A program made the position numbers and the translations under genes. Below the pieces are notes generated by a model. It was not told where the DNA came from, searched no databases, and saw nothing but the letters and a program-made list of their open reading frames with translations. Of a stretch of 64,000 nucleotides of DNA, positions 227 through 20,871 are shown one piece after another; the stretch's first letter is position 1; each line of letters opens with the position of its first letter. The DNA lies in NCBI GenBank assembly GCA_937864185.1, contig CALMIS010000275.1, forward strand, positions 13,125 to 77,124. The letters are read 5' to 3'. This DNA is from an uncultured Chloroflexota bacterium (GTDB taxonomy: Bacteria > Chloroflexota > Anaerolineae > 4572-78 > J111).

Positions 227-1327
227 ATGGAGATCTCAACCCAGCTTAACAATGGTTCACCCACAACCACCGCCACTGTCACCGCGGCGCGGCTGCATGG
301 TCCTAGCGACCTGCGCGTCGAGGAGGTACCGCATCCCGGTCCGCCCGGCCCGGATCAGGTGCTGCTGCGAGTGACAGCCGTGGGGATTTGTGGTAGCGAT
401 TTACACACTTACAAGGATGGCCGCATCGGGGACAACGTGATCGAGTCGCCCTTGACTCTAGGCCACGAATTCGCCGGGATCATCGAGGCCGTCGGCGAGG
501 AGGCGATGGGGGGTGATTTCCAGCCGCTCCATCCGGGCATGCGTGTCGCCGTCGATCCGGCCCAGCCTTGTTGGCATTGCGAGATGTGCGAGTTGGGCCA
601 TCCCAACTTGTGCTATCATCTCCATTTCTGCGGCTCTTATCCTGATGAAGGCAGCCTGGTGCAGTGGATGCATATGCCGGCCCGCACTTGTTTCCCGGTG
701 CCGGACAGCATCGATGATATGGGTGCGGCTCTCCTGGAGCCGTTGGGTATCGCCGTACATGCCGTGGATTTGGCCAAGATCCGGGTGGCGGACAGCGTGG
801 CGATTTTGGGCGCGGGTTGCATTGGTCTTAGTATTCTGGAACTGGTCAAACTGTCTGGGGCCCAGCCAATTTTTGTGAGCGATAAATTTCCCTGGCGGTT
901 GGCGGTAGCCGAGCAGTTGGGTGCGATTCCGATCAATTGCGATCAGGTCGATCCGGCCAAAGTAGTCTTAGACGCCACCGCTGGTCGAGGAGTCGATGTG
1001 GTGATTGAGGCTGCCTGGGCAGACCACTCGGTGCAGCAGGCCGCGGATATGGCCCGCATGGGTGGCCGGATGGTAATTGTGGGGATTTCCGAGGCCGACG
1101 AGCTACGGATGAAACACTCAACCGTGCGGCGCAAGGGGCTGACCATCCGTTTGGCCCGGCGGATGAAGCATACTTACCCGCGCTCCATCAAACTGATGGC
1201 CGGCGGTGCGGTCGATTTCGGGCCTATGGTCAGTCATCGCTTCCCTCTTGAACAGGCGCCGGAAGCTTTTGCCATGAATACCGCTTACCAGGATAACGTC
1301 ATCAAAGTGATCATCGACGTTAGCTAG
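227..1327 (+). CDS. zinc-dependent alcohol/polyol dehydrogenase (MDR superfamily, sorbitol/threonine dehydrogenase-like)
   Basis: 366-aa ORF with catalytic-zinc motifs GICGSDLH and GHEFAG, a structural-zinc Cys cluster [15 protein letters not shown] and a Rossmann motif GAGCIGL. AAGGAA lies upstream of the ATG. Confidence 0.85.
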
Positions 1328-4754: not shown

Positions 4755-7700
4755 AACTTCTCTCCATGTACTCCTTAACAAGCGTAAGGGCTTTTTCATC
4801 TTCAAAGTTGCGGGCCAGAGCACTTAAGCGTTCCGCAAATGGTCCGTATTTTTCATCAAGCTGGCTAAGCTTTTCGGCCCGCGCTTCGAGGCCAGCCATA
4901 TCGCCCATCATCGCCAAATCGAGCAAGACGGCCAACTCCTCCGGCGGGGGGGAGGCCAAAATCTGCCGAATCACATCCAAATCGTAGGGCGCTGTCTCCA
5001 TCTGATCGGGGACGTGGGGTTGATAGTTCCATTCCAACCCTAGCAATGTCTCAAGCGAACCTAGAAGCACAGTGATGGGCGCCATCTTGGGCAGTAGCGC
5101 CTGGCAGAACTGGGGCAGTTGTTGTTGGTGCTGGAAATTGTCCTGGTCCACGGAGATGGCTAAAATTGGCTTGCTCTGCGCCTCAGCCAGGTGATGCAAG
5201 GCTTTTACAGTAGGCCTAGGAGCGCTAATGAGCAGTTCAGCGTCAGCCATGATGAGATCGGCTGAGCCTGTTTGGGCTTTGGTTAGGCCTTCTTCACTGG
5301 TCCCTGTTTCAATAATTTTGAAGCCCAGGGGTTCTAGCCAATTTATCAGCGTCAGTCGATTCTCTTGACTGGGATCAATGATCAGAATGGTTTTAGGCTG
5401 GCCGGTGTAGCCGGTAATCGTGCGCCAGCCGCTGGTCAGGACTTTGGGTTTGGGGGGTAAGCCGACGACCGGCAGCGGCAAATCGAACCAGAATCTAGTT
5501 CCCTGCCCTAACTGGCTGACAATCTTAAGTTCGCTGCCCATCAGTTGAGCTAATCGATGGCTGATCGCCAGCCCCAAGCCGGTGCCTTGACTGCGACGGC
5601 GCGCGTCGCCTGCTTGCTCAAAGGGCAAAAAGATTCTATCGATCTCATTGGCAGGTAAACCGATCCCTGTATCTTCCACTTCAAAGCGGATAATCTGGCC
5701 GGAGTCGGCCAGGTCTGGGGACTCGGGTCGGCTGATCCGGAAGGCGACATAGCCTTTGTTGGTAAATTTGATGGCATTGTCTAGAAGATTAATGAGAATT
5801 TGGCGCAGCCGGCGTTGATCGCCGTAAACCCCGTTCGGCAGTGGAGAAAATGGTTCATACCGGAAGTCGATACTTTTCTGCAGAGCCTGGAGCCGGTAGA
5901 TTTCTACAATGCTGGTGAGCAGATTGGGCAGATTAAAGTCGGCTGGATCAAGTTCCATCTTGTGGGCTTCAATTTTGGACATATCCAAGATGTCATTGAT
6001 CAGGGTGAGCAAATGCTGGCCGTTTTGCTCGATGATATTCAAACCATCACGCTGGGGCCGGTTGAGGTCGATATCTTGTTTGAGGATGGCCGTGTAACCC
6101 AAAATCCCGTTGAGCGGCGTGCGCAATTCATGGCTCACGTTGGCCAGGAACTCACTCTTGGCCCGGCTAGCCGACTGAGCCACATCCCGAGCCTGCTGGA
6201 GTTCGGCGTTTTTGCGTTCGAGTTGCTCGTTGCGTTCGGCCAATTTGGCGTTGGCTTTTTGCAGCGCCGTCTCAGCCCGCTCCCGCTCGGCTAATTCCCG
6301 TTGAGCCAGGCTATAAAGGCGAGCATTGTAGATGGCCACCCCGATTTGGCTGGCCAACGAACGCAACAGGCTGGCATCGCTTTCCTTAAAGCTGGCAATC
6401 TCGCTTTTCTGGACATCTAGCACCCCAACCAGCACCTCGGCCAGACCCACAGTGATCGGCACGGCCATTTCGGCTTGCGTGTTGGGCAGCAAGAATTCGG
6501 GTGACCAGCCATCTGTCTCATGCACATTATCGATAATAACAATTTCGCGGGTGCGGGCTACGTGGGCGATGGGGCTGCCGGGGGCCTTCAGATCGATGTG
6601 GCGCAGCACCGCGGTTGGTCCAGCCCAGGTCTTGTTGGTCCCTTCGACCAATACCAACTTCTCTTGATCGTCGTCCAGTAAATAAATGTGGGTATGAAAA
6701 AAATTGTACTCCTGCTGTAAGCGTTCAATGACGTACTTCAGCAACAGATCTAAATCCAGAATAGCGGTCAATTGATAACTGATTTCGGTGTTGGTTTCAA
6801 GCGCCCGGGTTCGCTCTTGGACGCGGTCTTCCAGCGACTCGATGGCGTGGCGTAGCCGGCTGGTCATCTTATTAAAGGCTTTTGCCAGTAGACCAATTTC
6901 GTCCTGGCTGGTAATCCGTACTTTTTGGCTCAGATTCCCGCCTTCGGCGATCGCGATGGCCGCCGTGGTTAAACTGGCTAACGGCTTGGTGATGCTGCGG
7001 GCTACGAGCACACCCAAACCGGCGACAGAAACCCCGACGAGAACGATCATCCAGCCTAAAGAGCTACGAATATCGGTCAGCCAGAGGAAGGCGTTTGTTT
7101 CTTCAGCTTCAGCCAGCAAAGCCCAGCTATGATGGCCGATAGTCAGCGGCTGGTAGGCGCTGAGTAGAGTCAAGCCTTGGCGCTCGATGACCAGCTCGCC
7201 GGTTTGGCCGGTCAAGGCCTGTTCTACAGCGGCTTTGTCCACTCCAGTCAGGGCAGCTGGGTCAGAGGCAGCCAACCGGGCATTGGCGCGTCGTTGCCCA
7301 TCTTGACTGATAAGAGAGACCAGGATACTGTTCGACTGGCTGCTGCCGGTTGTTTTGCCGGTGAGCAGTTGTTCGATACTTTGGAGGGGTAGGTGATAAA
7401 CCAGAAAACCAAGCTGTTGCTGGTTGACCACGATCGGCGCTCCCAGAAAGACCCCGGCTTGGCTGTTGAACGGCCCCTCAGCCACCAGATCGGTGACAAG
7501 GGTGCGATGTGGGCCGATCTCGCTGGCTAGCGTTTCAACCAACTGAGTCAGGGGCTCGGAAGAGGTAGAAGACTCGAACAGGTTAAGCGGCGCTAGATCG
7601 GGCTGCTGGTGGCGATAGACCAGCCGACCATCGCTGGTAACGAGATAAATATCGTTGTAGGCCTTGACTTGAATAACGTCTTCAAAAAATTGGCGGTAAT

Positions 7701-8016
7701 CGTCTGCCGCTGGCGTATCACGCTCCAAAGCTTGAATGGCCTCGCTGACCAACTGCAAATCGGTGGTGGCGGCCAAGTCGCCTCGGGCCTGGGCGAAAAA
7801 GGTCTCAATCTGTTCGGCTTTGAGATCTCGCACCATGACGAGATAGTCGGTGGCTTGGCGGCGCAGAGTTTGTTCAAATAAGGATGAGGCGATCAGGCCT
7901 ACTACAATCAGAGGGATTACTGATCCGGCCAGGAGCAGGAGTGTCAACTTGGTTTGCAGGGAATGAAGCGGGCTGAGCATTGTATTTACGTCTGGCGCTG
8001 AAGGTCTTTTCATCAC
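4717..8016 (-). CDS. membrane sensor histidine kinase (Cache-like/HAMP/GAF/HisKA/HATPase) with receiver-like domain and helical C-terminal tail
   Basis: N-terminal TM helix, a roughly 270-aa extracytoplasmic region and a second TM helix. HAMP (ITKPLASL...AFNKMTSRL), one GAF (VAIYNARLY), a coiled coil and H-box [16 protein letters not shown] boxes NLLDNAIKFT, DTGIGL, GTGLGL. A receiver-like segment (ILIIDPSQ...DLIMAD) follows. Confidence 0.85.
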   Translation of the reverse strand: MMKRPSAPDVNTMLSPLHSLQTKLTLLLLAGSVIPLIVVGLIASSLFEQTLRRQATDYLVMVRDLKAEQIETFFAQARGDLAATTDLQLVSEAIQALERDTPAADDYRQFFEDVIQVKAYNDIYLVTSDGRLVYRHQQPDLAPLNLFESSTSSEPLTQLVETLASEIGPHRTLVTDLVAEGPFNSQAGVFLGAPIVVNQQQLGFLVYHLPLQSIEQLLTGKTTGSSQSNSILVSLISQDGQRRANARLAASDPAALTGVDKAAVEQALTGQTGELVIERQGLTLLSAYQPLTIGHHSWALLAEAEETNAFLWLTDIRSSLGWMIVLVGVSVAGLGVLVARSITKPLASLTTAAIAIAEGGNLSQKVRITSQDEIGLLAKAFNKMTSRLRHAIESLEDRVQERTRALETNTEISYQLTAILDLDLLLKYVIERLQQEYNFFHTHIYLLDDDQEKLVLVEGTNKTWAGPTAVLRHIDLKAPGSPIAHVARTREIVIIDNVHETDGWSPEFLLPNTQAEMAVPITVGLAEVLVGVLDVQKSEIASFKESDASLLRSLASQIGVAIYNARLYSLAQRELAERERAETALQKANAKLAERNEQLERKNAELQQARDVAQSASRAKSEFLANVSHELRTPLNGILGYTAILKQDIDLNRPQRDGLNIIEQNGQHLLTLINDILDMSKIEAHKMELDPADFNLPNLLTSIVEIYRLQALQKSIDFRYEPFSPLPNGVYGDQRRLRQILINLLDNAIKFTNKGYVAFRISRPESPDLADSGQIIRFEVEDTGIGLPANEIDRIFLPFEQAGDARRRSQGTGLGLAISHRLAQLMGSELKIVSQLGQGTRFWFDLPLPVVGLPPKPKVLTSGWRTITGYTGQPKTILIIDPSQENRLTLINWLEPLGFKIIETGTSEEGLTKAQTGSADLIMADAELLISAPRPTVKALHHLAEAQSKPILAISVDQDNFQHQQQLPQFCQALLPKMAPITVLLGSLETLLGLEWNYQPHVPDQMETAPYDLDVIRQILASPPPEELAVLLDLAMMGDMAGLEARAEKLSQLDEKYGPFAERLSALARNFEDEKALTLVKEYMERSYGTRSKRSRNGN

Positions 8017-8170
8017 TTTTTAAACTCCAGAACAGAGCGCCTGCGCTCAGGATTCCATTATAGCATTCTCTGGGCAAGTTCGCCTTACTTTGTCACTAGT
8101 GAATAAGTACTATGGCCGGCTCAAACTTGGATGTTGAGAGTTTCATTATAGTTTAACTGCCCGCTCGGGT

Positions 8171-12831: not shown

Positions 12832-13421
12832 AGCGACCACCCTAAATCAGCGGCGTGAGCCACGCTCTCATGCTCAAGCGTAACCATCCACAAGTACCAA
12901 CCGGCCGGCTGGGTCAGTTTTAGGCCGGTGGGCAAGCGCCATTCATGATTTCGGGTACGCTGGAGCGTATCCGGCGAGAGTAGCGTTGGTTGAGTAAAAA
13001 AACTGTGCAACGCGGTCGCCGTATGGAGGGCCAGCTCCTTGATCTCGGGCCAGGGGCGGGTGGCATAAACTTGAGTCTGGTAGGCGTTGAACTCATCGAC
13101 ATTGTCAAAGCTGCGGATCTGTCCGGCCAACGGTAGGTAGCCACTCAAAGTCATGATCTGAGGCCACGGACTCCCGGTAATCATCTCTGCTGCAGCCATG
13201 ATCGTGTACCGCTCCCACTCGGCAATGTGAGCCACCAGTTGCCCCACAGTCCGGCCATCCTGCCCGACCTGGGCGGCATCATCAGCCGTCATCGAGCGGA
13301 TATGGCTCAGATAACGCATGGTCAATTCGGTGTGAAACTTGGCCAAACGAGCGTAGCGATCGTACGGTGACAGGGCGGCCAGTCTGGTGATTTGTTGATA
13401 GAACAGCTCCGGCGGTATCAT
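12828..13421 (-). CDS. DinB/ClbS-like four-helix-bundle superfamily protein (tentative)
   Basis: 197-aa ORF. The segment GQLVAHIAEWERY resembles the His-containing helix of DinB/ClbS-type proteins. First gene of a tightly spaced four-gene minus-strand operon. Confidence 0.4.
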   Translation of the reverse strand: MIPPELFYQQITRLAALSPYDRYARLAKFHTELTMRYLSHIRSMTADDAAQVGQDGRTVGQLVAHIAEWERYTIMAAAEMITGSPWPQIMTLSGYLPLAGQIRSFDNVDEFNAYQTQVYATRPWPEIKELALHTATALHSFFTQPTLLSPDTLQRTRNHEWRLPTGLKLTQPAGWYLWMVTLEHESVAHAADLGWSL

Positions 13422-13595
13422 GGCAACTCCTTTGTTAGAACGCGAGCAGTTCTATTATGCTCAACCCTGTCGGCTCTGGCAAACGGGTAAATCCACCTCC
13501 GAAAGGGTGTGTCCTAAATTTTAGGCAGACCTAGTAGGTTTTCAAAACCATGAGGTCTATCTCCAAAAAATGGGCCCCCCCTCCGAAATTGGCCC

Positions 13596-13624
13596 TTGAC
13601 CCCTCCTTGAAATTGTGATAGACT
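13596..13624 (+). promoter_or_regulatory. near-consensus extended -10 promoter
   Basis: TTGACC (13596-13601), a 17-nt spacer, then TGaTAGACT (TG at 13616-13617, -10 at 13619-13624). Confidence 0.6.
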
Positions 13625-13666
13625 GGCTACAAGTTTAAGAATCTGCCTTGAAAGGAGGTACAGTTT

Positions 13667-13744
13667 ATGAATGCCAGACCCGCTGTTCAATTTAAATATC
13701 CGTACCTCCGTGGGCAAGCTCAGGGCTATTCGCTTCCGGCTTGA
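13667..13744 (+). CDS. 25-codon mini-ORF (MNARPAVQFKYPYLRGQAQGYSLPA)
   Basis: Perfect SD AAAGGAGGT (13651-13659) lies 7 nt before the ATG. It is preceded by the promoter at 13596-13624 and followed by the terminator at 13820-13856. It is too short for the ORF track. Confidence 0.45.
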   Translation: MNARPAVQFKYPYLRGQAQGYSLPA

Positions 13745-13819
13745 TGCGTTTGAAGGCAATAATGGGCTTGAGAAGTCTAAACGCTAAAGACAAAACCGGA
13801 AAGCAGCTTGGTAAATTGC

Positions 13820-13856
13820 ATGACCACGGAAAAGGAGTCCCGCCGTGGTCATTTTG
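13820..13856 (+). terminator. intrinsic terminator after the mini-ORF
   Basis: 10-bp stem ATGACCACGG / CCGTGGTCAT (13820-13829 / 13843-13852) followed by TTTT. Confidence 0.65.
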
Positions 13857-13969
13857 ATTCTATGAGCCTGGGCCGTATGGGCCAGGCAGCGTTGGTTAAA
13901 CTTTGTTGAAACTGGCCGCGGATATTTTGTCCGTCGGCCTTTTTATTTGTAAATAAGAGGAACTAAACC

Positions 13970-14995
13970 TTGTCCGACCAAATGTTTGACTCTAACGAAG
14001 AGACAGATAAATACGAACACTACGCCGACCGGTTCGACCCGGTGCAGATAGATCGCCAGGAACGGCGTAGGCGTAAACCCCGAGTGAAGCATCAGCCGAA
14101 GAAGTCGCACCAGGACTTGTTGGCCGATGTCGCAGACTCGATCGATATTGAAGCCGGCGAGTTCAGAACTACCTACCAGCCCGCCCGGTACGAAGCCGGT
14201 TGGTTACTGGAGTCGCTGCGGCCGTTTTATGATGAGGAACTTATCACCGATGTCCTTTCGCAGGTGAAGGGTGGCAAGGAAGCGAGCGTTTATCGCTGCC
14301 AGGCTCACCCCGGCACGGGCCACGCCTTGCTGGCGGCCAAAGTTTACCGGCCACGACGTTTCCGCAACCTGCGAAACGATAAGATGTATCGAGAAGGGCG
14401 AGCTACCCTCAGCGCCGAAGGCCGCGCCATCAAAACCACCGATCACCGGATTATGCGCGCTTTAGGCAAGAAGACGGACTTTGGGGCGCAAGTACAGCAC
14501 ACCTCCTGGTTGATGTACGAATACACCACCCTACATCAGCTTTACGAGCTAGGAGCAGCCGTGCCCCAGCCGATCGCTACCAGCGAGAATGCGATTCTGA
14601 TGAAGTTTTTGGGAGATGACTGGCTGGCGGCCCCAGCTTTGAATGAGGTCAACTTGGACCCCAATGAGGCTGAAGTCCATTTTCAGGAGATTCTGCGCAA
14701 CATCGAGCTGATGCTTCAAAACGATCTCATTCACGGCGACCTCTCAGCCTACAACATTCTTTACTGGGCAGGCCAGATTACCCTGATCGACTTCCCGCAG
14801 GTGGTCAATGCGCGGACCAATCCCAAGGCTTCGTTTATCTTGGAACGAGATCTCACGCGCACTTGCGAATACTTTGCCCGGCAAGGTCTTCGGCGTGATC
14901 CACAGGTTATTTTGAGCGAGTTGTGGCACCGCTATCTGGCTCCGGATCGTCAGGAGCAACTGGCCGATGAATCGCGTCATCTGGTTGAGGCTTAA
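13970..14995 (+). CDS. RIO1-family atypical serine protein kinase/ATPase
   Basis: Motifs GGKEASVYRC (P-loop equivalent), LIHGDLSAYNIL (catalytic loop) and IDFPQ (metal-binding loop). TTG start with AAGAGGA SD. Basic N-terminal extension (RQERRRRKPRVKHQPKK). Confidence 0.85.
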   Translation: MSDQMFDSNEETDKYEHYADRFDPVQIDRQERRRRKPRVKHQPKKSHQDLLADVADSIDIEAGEFRTTYQPARYEAGWLLESLRPFYDEELITDVLSQVKGGKEASVYRCQAHPGTGHALLAAKVYRPRRFRNLRNDKMYREGRATLSAEGRAIKTTDHRIMRALGKKTDFGAQVQHTSWLMYEYTTLHQLYELGAAVPQPIATSENAILMKFLGDDWLAAPALNEVNLDPNEAEVHFQEILRNIELMLQNDLIHGDLSAYNILYWAGQITLIDFPQVVNARTNPKASFILERDLTRTCEYFARQGLRRDPQVILSELWHRYLAPDRQEQLADESRHLVEA

Positions 14996-15327
14996 TTGTC
15001 GCCCGGTTCAGGACGAGGTTGGCGCTGCTGAGACCTCATTTCCTGGAGGGGAGGGCGAGTGAGAGACCCGGCCGGCTCGGTTCGGCCATTACCGTTGGCC
15101 GTAACCGGCCGGCCGGTGAGCTCATCGATCTTTGACTTAAGGTGAAAGACCTCGCGGCTGGTGGCGCTTTGTTGGGCTTCCCAATCTTGCCGGAGAATGC
15201 CCAGCCGGTTGTTGATACCATCGAGTTGCTGGTTAAGAGTTTTTGTCTGATAAGTGGTGATCCAGACCATTAAGAGAGCCGTTATGCCGAAGACAAAAGC
15301 GACTCCTGTCATCACTATCTCCCACAT
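14992..15327 (-). CDS. single-pass membrane protein with coiled-coil segment and Pro/Gln/Arg-rich tail, unknown function
   Basis: 111 aa. TM helix GVAFVFGITALLMVWITTY. SD AAAGGAGA lies 5 nt before the ATG. It is monocistronic because it converges on the RIO kinase gene with a 4-bp overlap. Confidence 0.65.
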   Translation of the reverse strand: MWEIVMTGVAFVFGITALLMVWITTYQTKTLNQQLDGINNRLGILRQDWEAQQSATSREVFHLKSKIDELTGRPVTANGNGRTEPAGSLTRPPLQEMRSQQRQPRPEPGDN

Positions 15328-15349
15328 GATTGTCTCCTTTGAGCCAAAT

Positions 15350-15378
15350 AAAAAAGCGGCCTGTTACTTCGAGGCCGC
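15350..15378 (-). terminator. intrinsic terminator forming the putative riboswitch expression platform
   Basis: Minus-strand GCGGCCT-N9-AGGCCGC followed by TTTTTT, ending 22 nt upstream of the ATG of the 111-aa ORF. Confidence 0.65.
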
Positions 15379-15464
15379 TGATACGATCAACTCGCTCCCT
15401 AACGAGTTGTAAACACACCTATTGGCACAGGCTCGGCCCCTCTTTCCACGAAGTGAACTCGAAC

Positions 15465-15662
15465 TAGGCTAAGGCGGGTGATCGGACTTTCGTTCAACAG
15501 GCAATGAATGACCAACAAAATCTGTTAATCACTCATTGTTAATTATTGATTAAACGATTACCGTTGCGGGACAGTGCCGGACTCCCTATCGCTGGACAGG
15601 TCACCGGGCTTTCCCCCTCGCGCGCCGCACGTCCGGGTGACAGGCGCACCTTTGCCTACCGT
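15465..15662 (-). promoter_or_regulatory. candidate cobalamin (B12) riboswitch aptamer
   Basis: The minus strand reads GGTGCGCC...GAGGGGGAAAGCCCGGTGA...GTCCGGCACTGTCCCGCAACGGTAA. A B12-box-like AAGTCCGATCACCCGCC sits at 15473-15489. These match the conserved core strings of the class as I recall them, for example in the E. coli btuB leader. No covariance model was run. Confidence 0.6.
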
Positions 15663-15680
15663 TTTTCGGTTTGACCGTTA

Positions 15681-15709
15681 AGTATAGGCGAAGGGTAAAT
15701 TGTTGTCAA
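15681..15709 (-). promoter_or_regulatory. near-consensus sigma70 promoter driving the riboswitch leader
   Basis: Minus-strand TTGACA (15709-15704), a 17-nt spacer and TATACT (15686-15681), about 20 nt upstream of the aptamer 5' end. Confidence 0.65.
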
Positions 15710-15924
15710 ATTTTTATAAATCCTGTTATAACAATTAGTTAGAGGAGCATTTACGGAGAGGGGCCTGGGTCGTGTATAATTAACTAAGGCGAGGAGGCAA
15801 CTATCCGGCTTCCTCGCATCTTTATGTTCCGCGCCGTCATACGAAAAACGCTCAGAGTCGCTAAGGTTTTTTCTTGGCGTGTCTTCGCGTCCTTAGTGGA
15901 TCAGTAATTTTTTGGAGGAATCAA

Positions 15925-19611
<3,687 letters not shown>

Positions 19612-19967: not shown

Positions 19968-20007
19968 ATCTGCGTAGACAAGCAACGACTTATTGGGAGT
20001 AAAACTA

Positions 20008-20406
20008 ATGTCTAAGCCGGCCATGACTCAAGAAAAGCGCATCCATCTCTCTCAGGAACAGGCGCAGCGGCTGAGCGCCCTAGCCCAGTCGCGCCAAATG
20101 AGCGAAGACCAAATCATCGAGAAGGCGCTGAATATCATCTTTAACCTGGCAGAGATCATCGAAGCAGGTCAATTTTGGCAGAAGATTGACCGGATCAATG
20201 ATTACCCTGATTTGTCTAAGACCGGAACGAAGCCGACTCATCTCAAAGAGCGCCAAGCGGAATATCAGTTCAAGCAGGCGTTAGTCGATCTGGGACTGCT
20301 TGAAGAAATCCGGGATGTTGCTTCAATATCCACGATTGATGCATCGGCCCCTATGCCGGTCAGCGGTAAACCTCTGTCAGAATTAATTATCGAGGAACGT
20401 CGTTGA
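20008..20406 (+). CDS. antitoxin-like protein (ribbon-helix-helix type N-terminus) of a VapBC-type module
   Basis: KRIHLSQEQAQRLSALAQSRQMSEDQIIEKAL resembles a CopG/RHH fold. Its stop codon directly abuts the GTG of the downstream PIN gene. GGGAG SD upstream. Confidence 0.6.
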   Translation: MSKPAMTQEKRIHLSQEQAQRLSALAQSRQMSEDQIIEKALNIIFNLAEIIEAGQFWQKIDRINDYPDLSKTGTKPTHLKERQAEYQFKQALVDLGLLEEIRDVASISTIDASAPMPVSGKPLSELIIEERR

Positions 20407-20871
20407 GTGGCTGTTTTCTACCTGGATACTAGCGCCCTGGTTAAACGCTACGCCTCAGAGAAAGGCTCCAATTGGGTCATCACTCTGACCGATCCCCCCG
20501 CGGGTCACGACATTTTCATCAACCGCCTGGCCGGACCGGAAATGATTGCTGCTATCTTTCGCAAGATGCGAATGGGCGAGCTTTCTGGCCCAGAAGCCTC
20601 ACAGTTGGCCCAGACCTTTCGATCTGATTGGCAAATCCGCTATCAAATTTTAGGGGTGACTAGCGCCATTGCTGAGCAAGCTATGCACTTGGCTGAAAGT
20701 CACGGCTTACGTGGGTATGATGCCGTTCATCTAGCCACTGCGTTAGCCTTGCAACAAATTCGGCAATCAGCGGGATGGTCGCCTCTTACTTTTGTCTCCG
20801 CTGATAATGACCAACTGCTGGCAGCTCAGGCGGAAGCTCTACCCACCGAAAACCCAAATAGTTACTCGTAG
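20407..20871 (+). CDS. PIN-domain toxin (VapC family)
   Basis: FYLDTSALVKRY (first acidic residue), GYDAVHLATALAL and FVSADNDQL motifs. 154 aa. Confidence 0.8.
   Translation: MAVFYLDTSALVKRYASEKGSNWVITLTDPPAGHDIFINRLAGPEMIAAIFRKMRMGELSGPEASQLAQTFRSDWQIRYQILGVTSAIAEQAMHLAESHGLRGYDAVHLATALALQQIRQSAGWSPLTFVSADNDQLLAAQAEALPTENPNSYS

What the first reader, a model, noticed from the sequence alone, without database searches (positions are those of the whole stretch)
15325..15709. Cobalamin-riboswitch-like leader controlling only a 111-aa single-pass membrane protein, back to back with metH
The minus strand carries a complete, colinear regulatory unit.
- Promoter: TTGACA-17-TATACT at 15709-15681.
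- Aptamer-like strings: GGTGCGCC, GGGGGAAAGCCCGGTGA, GTCCGGCACTGTCCCGCAACGGTAA and a B12-box-like AAGTCCGATCACCCGCC.
- Terminator: GCGGCCT/AGGCCGC plus U6.
- Translation signals: AAAGGAGA SD and the ATG at 15327.

The only gene it can control is a bitopic coiled-coil protein, because that gene converges on the RIO kinase gene. This is not a transporter, a cobalamin biosynthesis enzyme or a B12-independent isozyme, which are the usual B12 regulon members. The unit shares its promoter region divergently with B12-dependent metH, whose own leader has no such aptamer. The aptamer also has a 17-nt insertion in the GGTGA...TCCGG loop and an unusually AT-rich ~60-nt peripheral segment at 15490-15550. 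Together these point either to a new B12-responsive gene class or to an unusual divergent-promoter arrangement that affects metH.
Basis: partly seen in the sequence, partly recalled or inferred. Interest (0 to 1): 0.72.

Follow-up and report, generated by a model that had tools for sequence, protein, structure and literature searches.

The report
B12 riboswitch before small membrane-protein gene
This is a genuine, ordinary-looking vitamin B12 riboswitch that shuts off one small membrane-protein gene of unknown function; that gene always sits back to back with the B12-dependent methionine synthase gene, but only this lineage has the riboswitch.

Summary
Rfam's Cobalamin model (RF00174) hits window 15456-15668 (-) at 40.5 bits, above the 31.5 cut-off, and it is the only Rfam hit in 64 kb. 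The leader is identical in four independent assemblies.

The two "unusual" features are shared with a subclass of cobalamin riboswitches. These are the 16-nt hairpin in L4 and the AT-rich P6 extension. Subclass members found in metagenomes precede CbiM, CobD/CbiB and a solute-binding protein. They also share the platform: P13, a G-run that can pair with the terminator's 5' arm, and a terminator. This matches the tested P. megaterium metE OFF-switch model.

The 111-aa gene is real (dN/dS about 0.2) and has no known family. Only seven cluster representatives (plus the window's own protein) turned up in billions of proteins. In all three lineages it lies divergent from metH.

The riboswitch occurs only in the window lineage. 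The sister lineage has deleted 235 nt of aptamer and platform and lost the terminator stem. The outgroup has a 22-nt leader. Nothing suggests an effect on metH.

Verdict: a new member of a known kind, with a non-canonical and evolutionarily labile target. Interest is moderate to low.

The parts
15681..15709 (-). Sigma-70-type promoter TTGACA-17-TATACT of the riboswitch/small-gene transcript
   Evidence: 11 of 12 matches. The same TTGACA-17-TATACT promoter precedes the homologous gene in L004 and in L087-L091.
15456..15668 (-). Cobalamin riboswitch aptamer (RF00174). P1 is 15658-15649 paired with 15474-15465.
   Evidence: 40.5 bits, gathering score 31.5, E 8.8e-7, full-length match. Identical in L217-L220.
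15585..15600 (-). 16-nt hairpin inserted in loop L4 (CCUGUC-CAGC-GAUAGG)
   Evidence: Shown as an insertion in the cmscan alignment and as a hairpin in the MFE fold. About 7 of 106 riboswitches with the same core have a comparable 17-29 nt insert.
15567..15571 (-). L5 loop UCCCG, the kissing-loop partner
   Evidence: Sequence. It matches the UCCCG L5 consensus quoted in PMC10327014.
15490..15557 (-). P6 extension, including the AT-rich 16-bp hairpin at 15538-15502
   Evidence: MFE fold. Five of the six window-versus-L001 differences in the aptamer's 3' part lie here and all five keep or improve pairing: 15552 U.G to C-G, 15508 U.G to C-G, 15538 C-G to U.G, and 15548/15499 C.U to G-C. L186, L150 and L146 have similar long AT-rich extensions.
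15473..15489 (-). B12 box AAGUCCGAUCACCCGCC
15431..15464 (-). P13 stem-loop of the expression platform. The candidate L13 loop is CGUGGAAA (15450-15443). The 3' strand GAGGGGCCGAGC contains the antiterminator strand GGGGCCG (15440-15434).
   Evidence: MFE fold. The motif GUUCGA..CCUUCGUGGA..AAGGGGGGCCGAG is shared with L186, L150, L097, L146 and L176. The apical stem CCUU/AAGG is kept in 7 of 7 sequences, with one compensatory change.
15350..15378 (-). Intrinsic terminator GCGGCCU/AGGCCGC plus U6. Its 5' arm and loop edge (15377-15371, CGGCCUC) can instead pair with 15440-15434 as an antiterminator.
   Evidence: L001 keeps the stem through a G.U wobble. In L004, L085 and L086 the stem is broken (dG -6.3 and no hairpin).
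15333..15340 (-). Shine-Dalgarno AAAGGAGA
   Evidence: Conserved as AAGGGAGA in L004.
14992..15327 (-). 111-aa gene (HMR63779.1, annotated hypothetical protein). It has an N-terminal transmembrane helix continuing as one long helix to residue 71, then a disordered tail.
   Evidence: helix 2-71; pLDDT below 50 from residue 73 on. dN/dS is 0.2 against L004 and 0.06-0.14 within the L087 clade. No Pfam or NCBIfam family.
15925..19611 (+). metH, the B12-dependent methionine synthase and conserved divergent neighbour. It is not part of the regulated transcript.
   Evidence: Divergent pairing with the small gene is seen in every related locus with enough flank.
13970..14995 (+). RIO1-family kinase gene, convergent with the small gene and overlapping it by 4 nt. 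It is context only.
   Evidence: No minus-strand terminator lies between 15000 and 13300.

Best explanation
The element is a working cobalamin riboswitch of the long Cbl-I type with a P6 extension, so it probably senses adenosylcobalamin. It sits in the 5' leader of a monocistronic mRNA for a 111-aa bitopic membrane protein of unknown function.

Proposed mechanism. Transcription starts a few bases after the -10 box at 15681. When a corrinoid is bound, the L5 loop (UCCCG, 15571-15567) kisses the loop of P13 and stabilises P13 (15464-15431). That keeps the G-rich 3' strand of P13 occupied. The terminator (15378-15350) then forms, and transcription stops 23 nt before the ATG. Without corrinoid, GGGGCCG (15440-15434) pairs with CGGCCUC (15377-15371). 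The terminator cannot form, and the small gene is transcribed and translated from an exposed Shine-Dalgarno. It is therefore a B12-OFF transcriptional switch.

Shown versus inferred. The following are shown here: aptamer identity, the alternative pairings, their conservation in related riboswitches, the reality of the gene, and the phylogenetic distribution. Ligand binding, the kissing loop and the switching itself are inferred from the tested P. megaterium metE model.

Evolution. The small gene and its promoter are an old divergent partner of metH in this Anaerolineae group. The riboswitch is a lineage-specific addition to its leader. It was most parsimoniously gained in the common ancestor of the window and L004 lineages and later deleted in the L004 lineage.
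For: - The RF00174 hit is above the gathering score and is the only Rfam hit in the window.
- The leader is identical in four independent assemblies.
- A strain about 2% diverged (L001) differs at six aptamer positions. Five of them preserve or create base pairs, and its terminator change is a G.U wobble.
- L5 equals the UCCCG consensus (PMC10327014).
- In a transcript cut before the terminator's 3' arm, the G-run pairs with the terminator's 5' arm. This holds for the window and for L186, L150, L097, L146 and L099, even though their arm sequences differ.
- This is the architecture shown by mutation and compensation for the P. megaterium metE riboswitch (PMC10327014).
- Riboswitches of the same subclass precede CbiM, CobD/CbiB and an SBP_bac_5 protein.
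- The small ORF is under purifying selection. Its homologues are always divergent from metH.
- Where the aptamer was deleted (L004, L085, L086) the terminator stem is also broken. That is expected if the terminator would otherwise silence the gene.
Against: - The score (40.5 bits) is modest. The P6-extension part aligns poorly to the model, with low posterior probabilities.
- Relative to its closest relatives, the window's P13 has two 1-nt deletions (CAC-UUCG versus CCACCUUCG). It also has two extra hairpins (15430-15388) between P13 and the terminator.
- The kissing-loop partner is ambiguous. CGUGGA would pair with a bulged U, and GGGA in the loop at 15400-15396 is an alternative.
- RNAalifold supported only 4 pairs of P13.
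- The downstream gene has no known link to B12.
- The sister lineage dispensed with the aptamer, and the outgroup has none. The regulation is therefore not essential to the gene.
- There are no expression or binding data.
Confidence: 0.78

Rival explanations
1. The aptamer is real by descent but is a dying relic. It no longer binds or switches, and the gene is simply expressed at a low constitutive level set by terminator leakage.
For: - The sister lineage has already deleted the aptamer.
- The window's P13 has small deletions relative to its relatives.
- Window-versus-L001 divergence in the aptamer's 3' part is 6 of 131 nt. That is about as high as synonymous divergence in neighbouring genes.
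- The CM score is modest.
Against: - Five of the six substitutions are structure-preserving or pair-creating.
- The core motifs, P1, L5, the B12 box, the terminator and the antiterminator are all intact.
- An unregulated -14 kcal/mol terminator with U6 in front of a gene under purifying selection would be costly. In the lineage that lost the aptamer the terminator was also disabled.
Confidence: 0.12
2. The physiologically relevant output is antisense transcription. Read-through transcripts have no terminator after the small ORF and run antisense across the convergent RIO kinase gene. B12 would then control RIO expression, in the manner of B12-riboswitch-controlled antisense or non-coding RNAs reported in Listeria and Enterococcus (from my own knowledge, not checked here).
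For: - The stop codons overlap by 4 nt.
- No minus-strand intrinsic terminator was found between 15000 and 13300.
Against: - The small ORF is a conserved gene under purifying selection with its own SD.
- The convergent RIO arrangement also exists in the L004 lineage without a riboswitch.
- The older arrangement (L087, L088) has a same-strand peptidase gene instead.
- There is no evidence of any effect on RIO.
Confidence: 0.06
3. The riboswitch influences metH through the shared divergent promoter region.
For: - The two promoters are back to back. The riboswitch -35 is at 15709-15704 and the metH -10 is at 15775-15780.
- The metH/small-gene pairing is conserved.
Against: - A riboswitch acts on its own nascent RNA after initiation, and this transcript runs away from metH.
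- The terminator is about 330 nt downstream of the start, so it cannot affect initiation at the other promoter.
- Lineages without the riboswitch keep the same promoter pair.
- In L004 a PDDEXK_3 gene separates the two promoters.
Confidence: 0.03

Closest known systems
Cobalamin riboswitch, Rfam RF00174; long Cbl-I type with a P6 extension
   Same: Full-length match above the gathering score. It has a P1, a GGGAA/GGUG core, L5 UCCCG, a B12 box and a peripheral P6 extension.
   Different: It has a 16-nt hairpin in L4 and an AT-rich P6 extension. Both are minority features, but a subclass found in metagenomes shares them. The downstream gene is not in any canonical B12 regulon category (PMC3766115).
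Priestia megaterium metE corrinoid riboswitch, a repressing transcriptional switch dissected in PMC10327014
   Same: It shows the same logic. An L5-L13 kissing loop stabilises P13. [quoted passage not shown] Ligand therefore gives termination.
   Different: It controls a different gene; there the target is metE, a B12-independent isozyme. The window's platform has two extra hairpins between P13 and the terminator. Its kissing-loop pairing is not established.
Metagenomic riboswitches L186 (before CbiM), L146 (before CobD/CbiB), L150/L188 (before an SBP_bac_5 protein), L097, L099 and L176
   Same: Identical 20-nt core. All have an L4 hairpin insert and a G-run-plus-terminator design. All except L099 share the platform motif ..CCUUCGUGGA..AAGGGGGGCCGAG. 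L186, L150/L188 and L146 also have a long AT-rich P6 extension, whereas L097, L099 and L176 have short ones.
   Different: Where the downstream gene is recognisable, it is a canonical cobalt or B12 gene. The window copy precedes an orphan membrane protein. Its terminator arms are GCGGCCU/AGGCCGC rather than CCCGCC/GGCGGG.
Small B12-regulon membrane proteins such as CbtB and CbiN (from my own knowledge)
   Same: They are small membrane proteins that can sit behind B12 riboswitches.
   Different: No Pfam or NCBIfam match at E <= 0.1. There is no His-rich tail. The protein has one transmembrane helix followed by a roughly 45-residue soluble helix. No partner transporter gene lies nearby.

Membership tests
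Cobalamin riboswitch (RF00174) | Covariance-model score at or above the curated gathering score | tested here: met
   40.5 bits against 31.5, model positions 1-189, E 8.8e-7.
Cobalamin riboswitch (RF00174) | Conserved core sequences: GGGAA...GGUG, GCACUG..CCCGCAA and the B12 box AGYCMG..CC.GCC closing onto P1 | tested here: met
   All are present at 15616-15561 and 15489-15473. P1 has 10 pairs with one A.A mismatch.
Cobalamin riboswitch (RF00174) | L5 loop able to form the kissing loop (consensus UCCCG) with a complementary L13 in the platform | tested here: inconclusive
   L5 is UCCCG (15571-15567). There are two candidate partners. CGUGGA lies in the P13 loop (15450-15445), would pair with a bulged U, and is conserved in 6 of 7 relatives. 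GGGA lies at 15399-15396. Neither could be discriminated here.
Cobalamin riboswitch (RF00174) | Peripheral P6 extension forming real helices (Cbl-I architecture) | tested here: met
   The MFE fold gives helices 15557-15550/15497-15490 and 15538-15502. Five substitutions in L001 keep or add pairs.
Cobalamin riboswitch (RF00174) | Expression platform with mutually exclusive terminator and antiterminator | tested here: met
   The terminator has dG -14.1. The G-run pairs with the terminator's 5' arm in truncated transcripts of the window and five relatives.
Cobalamin riboswitch (RF00174) | Binds a corrinoid and changes expression in response | not testable with these tools
   Needs in-line probing or ITC, in vitro transcription, or reporters.
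Canonical B12 regulon (biosynthesis, B12 or cobalt transport, B12-independent isozymes; PMC3766115) | The downstream gene belongs to one of these functional categories | tested here: not met
   No Pfam or NCBIfam family. Only seven cluster representatives, plus the window's own protein, were found among 5.8 and 1.8 billion sequences. The model is a single helix plus a disordered tail.
CbtB / CbiN small cobalt-transport components | Match to the family profile and an adjacent partner transporter gene | tested here: not met
   No hit at E <= 0.1. The neighbours are RIO kinase and metH.

The most novel reading that the evidence does not exclude
The 87-111 aa bitopic helical protein is a conserved divergent partner of metH in three lineages of this Anaerolineae group. 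It may be a previously unrecognised accessory factor of B12 or methionine metabolism that is wanted when B12 is scarce. For example, it could be a membrane tether or helper for corrinoid acquisition or MetH loading. On this reading, the window lineage placed it under a B12-OFF riboswitch for that reason. That would define a new member of the B12 regulon.
Probability: 0.15. Interest if true: 0.6.

Novelty: new member of a known kind. Interest (0 to 1): 0.36.

Why it matters
Riboswitch regulons are a proven way to assign functions to unknown genes. A B12-OFF switch in front of an orphan membrane protein that always sits beside metH is therefore a testable lead for a small B12- or methionine-linked factor in Chloroflexota.

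The locus also shows three states of one leader among close relatives: an intact riboswitch, a 235-nt deletion with a disabled terminator, and a short leader with no riboswitch. This gives a clean natural example of riboswitch turnover on a fixed promoter and gene.

The lead is weak, however. The riboswitch itself is conventional, the association is confined to one species-level lineage, and the protein offers no functional clue.

Tried and rejected
- Searching GTDB genomes and JGI metagenomes with the small-protein profile found nothing.
- Rfam at gathering threshold on the 13 closest RIO loci found only a tRNA. RIO synteny does not carry the unit. In the closest GTDB genomes (L005, L038) the small gene is not beside RIO, and in one of them it lies next to metH on another contig (L088).
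- Rfam at E <= 1 on L001-L004 and L085-L091 gave only chance-level hits. L001-L003 are cut inside the aptamer at window 15586, so the model cannot score them.
- The exhaustive HMMER search added one true relative (P0123) and one spurious repeat protein (P0124).
- Pfam and NCBIfam gave only sub-threshold coiled-coil or transmembrane look-alikes such as FtsL, ATP synthase b and SLATT.
- The AlphaFold model is one long helix with pLDDT 61.5. I ran no fold search because it would be meaningless.
- The 20-mer metagenome scan found no further copy of the riboswitch with the small gene. It did reveal the riboswitch subclass.
- RNAalifold on P13 recovered only 4 pairs because the outer stems misalign. 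The outer-stem covariation was read by eye: GUUCG/CGAGC, GUUCG/CGAAC, GCUCG/CGAGC and CGCG/CGCG.
- I considered and rejected an ON switch, because P13 and the terminator are compatible rather than exclusive.
- I considered and rejected translational control, because the SD is unpaired in the folds.
- I considered and rejected a nearby B12 transport or biosynthesis operon. Pfam scans of the ORFs in 1-40.8 kb showed none, and 41-64 kb was not scanned.

Full report

Yes. The minus strand between 15709 and 15325 reads, in order, as follows:
- a TTGACA-17-TATACT promoter at 15709-15681, with 11 of 12 matches;
- a 213-nt stretch that Rfam's Cobalamin model (RF00174) matches end to end;
- a P13-type stem-loop;
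- two further small hairpins;
- a terminator: GCGGCCU (15378-15372), a 9-nt loop, AGGCCGC (15362-15356) and U6 (15355-15350), dG -14.1 kcal/mol;
- a Shine-Dalgarno AAAGGAGA at 15340-15333;
- the ATG at 15327.

The Rfam match covers 15668-15456 at 40.5 bits against a gathering score of 31.5. E is 8.8e-7 over the whole window and 1.7e-8 locally. It is the only Rfam hit in the 64 kb at gathering threshold.

The terminator scan missed the terminator only because its loop limit is 8 nt.

The leader is identical in four independent assemblies from other samples (L217-L220), so it is not an assembly artefact.

The 111-aa ORF (14992-15327, -) ends 4 nt inside the convergent RIO1-kinase gene (13970-14995, +). 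It is therefore the only gene on the transcript.

metH (15925-19611, +) is divergent. Its leader has no Rfam match even at E <= 5.

**2. Are the "unusual" aptamer features unusual?**

No.

I scanned JGI metagenomes for the 20-nt core CCGGCACTGTCCCGCAACGG and fetched 120 loci. Of 106 loci in which the L4 length could be measured, 91 have the canonical 5-6 nt. About seven carry a 17-29 nt hairpin in the same place as the window's 16-nt insert at 15600-15585.

Those same loci (L186, L150/L188, L097, L146, L099, L176) are also the best blastn matches to the window's aptamer, at 73-87% identity over 55-120 nt.

Three of them (L186, L150/L188, L146) also have a long AT-rich P6 extension. All but L099 share a platform motif, GUUCGA..CCACCUUCGUGGA..AAAGGGGGGCCGAG, followed by a terminator.

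Their downstream genes are canonical where recognisable:
- L186 precedes CbiM (E 4e-50).
- L146 precedes CobD/CbiB (E 6e-88).
- L150/L188 precede an SBP_bac_5 binding protein.

The window element is therefore an ordinary member of a recognisable subclass.

Its AT-rich segment folds into helices 15557-15550/15497-15490 and 15538-15502. In a strain about 2% diverged (L001), five of the six aptamer substitutions keep or add base pairs:
- 15552 and 15508 change U.G to C-G.
- 15538 changes C-G to U.G.
- 15548 and 15499 together turn a C.U mismatch into G-C.

**3. How does it most likely work?**

L5 reads UCCCG (15571-15567). This is the consensus kissing-loop sequence quoted in PMC10327014.

P13 spans 15464-15431, with loop CGUGGAAA and 3' strand GAGGGGCCGAGC.

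When the transcript is cut before the terminator's 3' arm, GGGGCCG (15440-15434) pairs with CGGCCUC (15377-15371). That covers the terminator's 5' arm.

The same G-run-to-terminator pairing appears in L186, L150, L097, L146 and L099, even though their terminator arms have different sequences.

[quoted passage not shown] In that model, corrinoid binding favours the L5-L13 kissing loop, the kissing loop stabilises P13, and the 3' side of P13 is then unavailable as an antiterminator. The terminator forms.

I therefore read the window element as a B12-OFF transcriptional attenuator. The SD is unpaired in the folds, so translational control is unlikely.

Ligand binding, the identity of L13 and the switching itself are inferred, not shown. 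L13 could be CGUGGA with a bulged U, or GGGA at 15399-15396. RNAalifold on the seven P13 segments supported only the apical four pairs.

**4. What is the regulated gene?**

The protein (HMR63779.1, annotated hypothetical, Anaerolineae bacterium MAG) has no Pfam or NCBIfam family.

AlphaFold gives a single helix over residues 2-71. The N-terminal part of that helix is hydrophobic, which I read as a transmembrane segment. A disordered tail follows.

The family is tiny. Three searches over 5.8 and 1.8 billion sequences found seven cluster representatives plus the window's own protein.

It is nevertheless a real gene. dN/dS over the conserved 74 codons is about 0.2 between the window and L004, and 0.06-0.14 within the L087 clade.

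**5. What do related loci show?**

There are three lineages.

(a) The window lineage comprises the window, the identical L217-L220, and L001-L003 at about 2% divergence. It has the intact riboswitch.

(b) The L004/L085/L086 lineage has RIO at 85% and MetH at about 90% amino-acid identity.
- It keeps the same RIO, small gene and metH arrangement.
- It retains the promoter and the first roughly 60 nt of the leader (5' strand of P1 plus P2).
- It has lost window positions 15616-15382, a 235-nt deletion of the aptamer core and platform.
- The terminator's 5' arm is mutated to GCAACCU, so no terminator hairpin forms (dG -6.3 against -14.1).
- A small PDDEXK_3 gene sits between the promoter and metH.

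(c) The L087/L088/L089-L091 lineage has MetH at about 80-83% identity and includes MAG HK-STAS-CHLO-2.
- The small gene is again divergent from metH, behind the same TTGACA-17-TATACT promoter.
- The leader is only 22 nt and there is no riboswitch (Rfam at E <= 1).
- A peptidase S9 gene follows on the same strand.

The closest GTDB genomes by RIO kinase (L005 and L038, 68% identity) have neither the small gene nor a riboswitch next to RIO.

The conserved unit is therefore metH, the divergent promoter and the small gene. The riboswitch is an add-on. It was most parsimoniously gained in the ancestor of lineages (a) and (b) and then deleted in (b). Two independent losses from an older ancestor cannot be excluded.

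The deletion in (b) is accompanied by a broken terminator. That is what one expects if an unregulated terminator would silence a useful gene, and it argues that the terminator is functional.

**6. Comparison with what is known, and novelty**

Membership in RF00174 is met on score, core motifs, P6 extension and platform logic. The kissing-loop partner is unresolved. Ligand binding is not testable here.

The target gene falls outside the canonical regulon categories of biosynthesis, B12 or cobalt transport, and B12-independent isozymes (PMC3766115). It is not CbtB- or CbiN-like.

Nothing supports an effect on metH. The switch acts after initiation on an RNA that runs away from metH. Lineages without the riboswitch keep the same promoter pair.

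A side effect on RIO through antisense read-through is possible, because no minus-strand terminator lies between 15000 and 13300. There is no evidence for it.

**7. Verdict**

The riboswitch is real, conventional and probably functional, with an unconventional but evolutionarily labile target. It is a new member of a known kind.

The most interesting open reading is that this metH-linked small membrane protein has a role under B12 scarcity. I put that at roughly 15%.

Noticed in passing
window 15789-15817 (+); L004 about 605-650 (-); L087 about 395-440 (-); L088 about 5850-5895 (-): A strong hairpin sits immediately after the metH -10 box (TATAAT, 15775-15780). In the window it is GCGAGGAGGC/GCUUCCUCGC, dG -18.5. 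It is kept at the same place in all three lineages, with different arm sequences. In L087 and L088 it is followed by U8, in L004 by U5, and in the window by a weaker U-rich run. It looks like a terminator or attenuator at the very 5' end of the metH mRNA. No Rfam family matches it.
   Followed up: partly
L004 336-503; L085 3281-3496; L086 5017-5232: A 55-71 aa PDDEXK_3 gene is inserted between metH and the small-gene promoter in the lineage that lost the aptamer. It is flanked by short repeats that resemble CCACTAAGGACGC..AAG in the window's metH leader (about 15855-15900).
   Followed up: no
window 13300-15000 (-): No intrinsic terminator was found on the minus strand after the small ORF. Read-through transcripts from the riboswitch promoter would therefore run antisense across the whole RIO kinase gene.
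   Followed up: partly
L001, L002, L003 position 1 (= window 15586): Logan contigs from three different runs of one project all begin at the same base inside the aptamer, just 3' of the L4 insert. This suggests an assembly-graph branch, and so population variation, at that point.
   Followed up: no
window 15723-15732: A perfect 10-nt palindrome, TGTTATAACA, lies in the AT-rich spacer between the two divergent promoters. It is partly kept in L004 and absent in L087. It could be a regulator binding site.
   Followed up: no
L005 7140-7835 (+); L038 about 7400-8130 (+): In the closest GTDB genomes the gene after RIO kinase encodes a 231-aa protein that matches the B12-binding region of MetH (about 30% identity to residues 688-867). 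It may be a stand-alone corrinoid protein.
   Followed up: no
L097, reverse strand positions 6875-7987, downstream of the riboswitch core at 6487: A riboswitch of the same subclass precedes a 370-aa protein with no Pfam hit. This is another possible uncharacterised B12-regulon member.
   Followed up: no
window 19993-20871 (+); L088 1072-1935 (-): A 137-aa protein plus a PIN-domain protein, probably a toxin-antitoxin pair, directly follows metH. It is syntenic with L088 at 60% and 76% identity. The metH side of the locus is therefore older than the RIO side.
   Followed up: partly
window 13918-13934 (+); L001 1616-1677: A terminator-like hairpin with a T-run lies just upstream of the RIO start on the RIO strand. 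It gave a sub-threshold Rfam hit to AaHKsRNA41, which matches only that model's terminator part.
   Followed up: no
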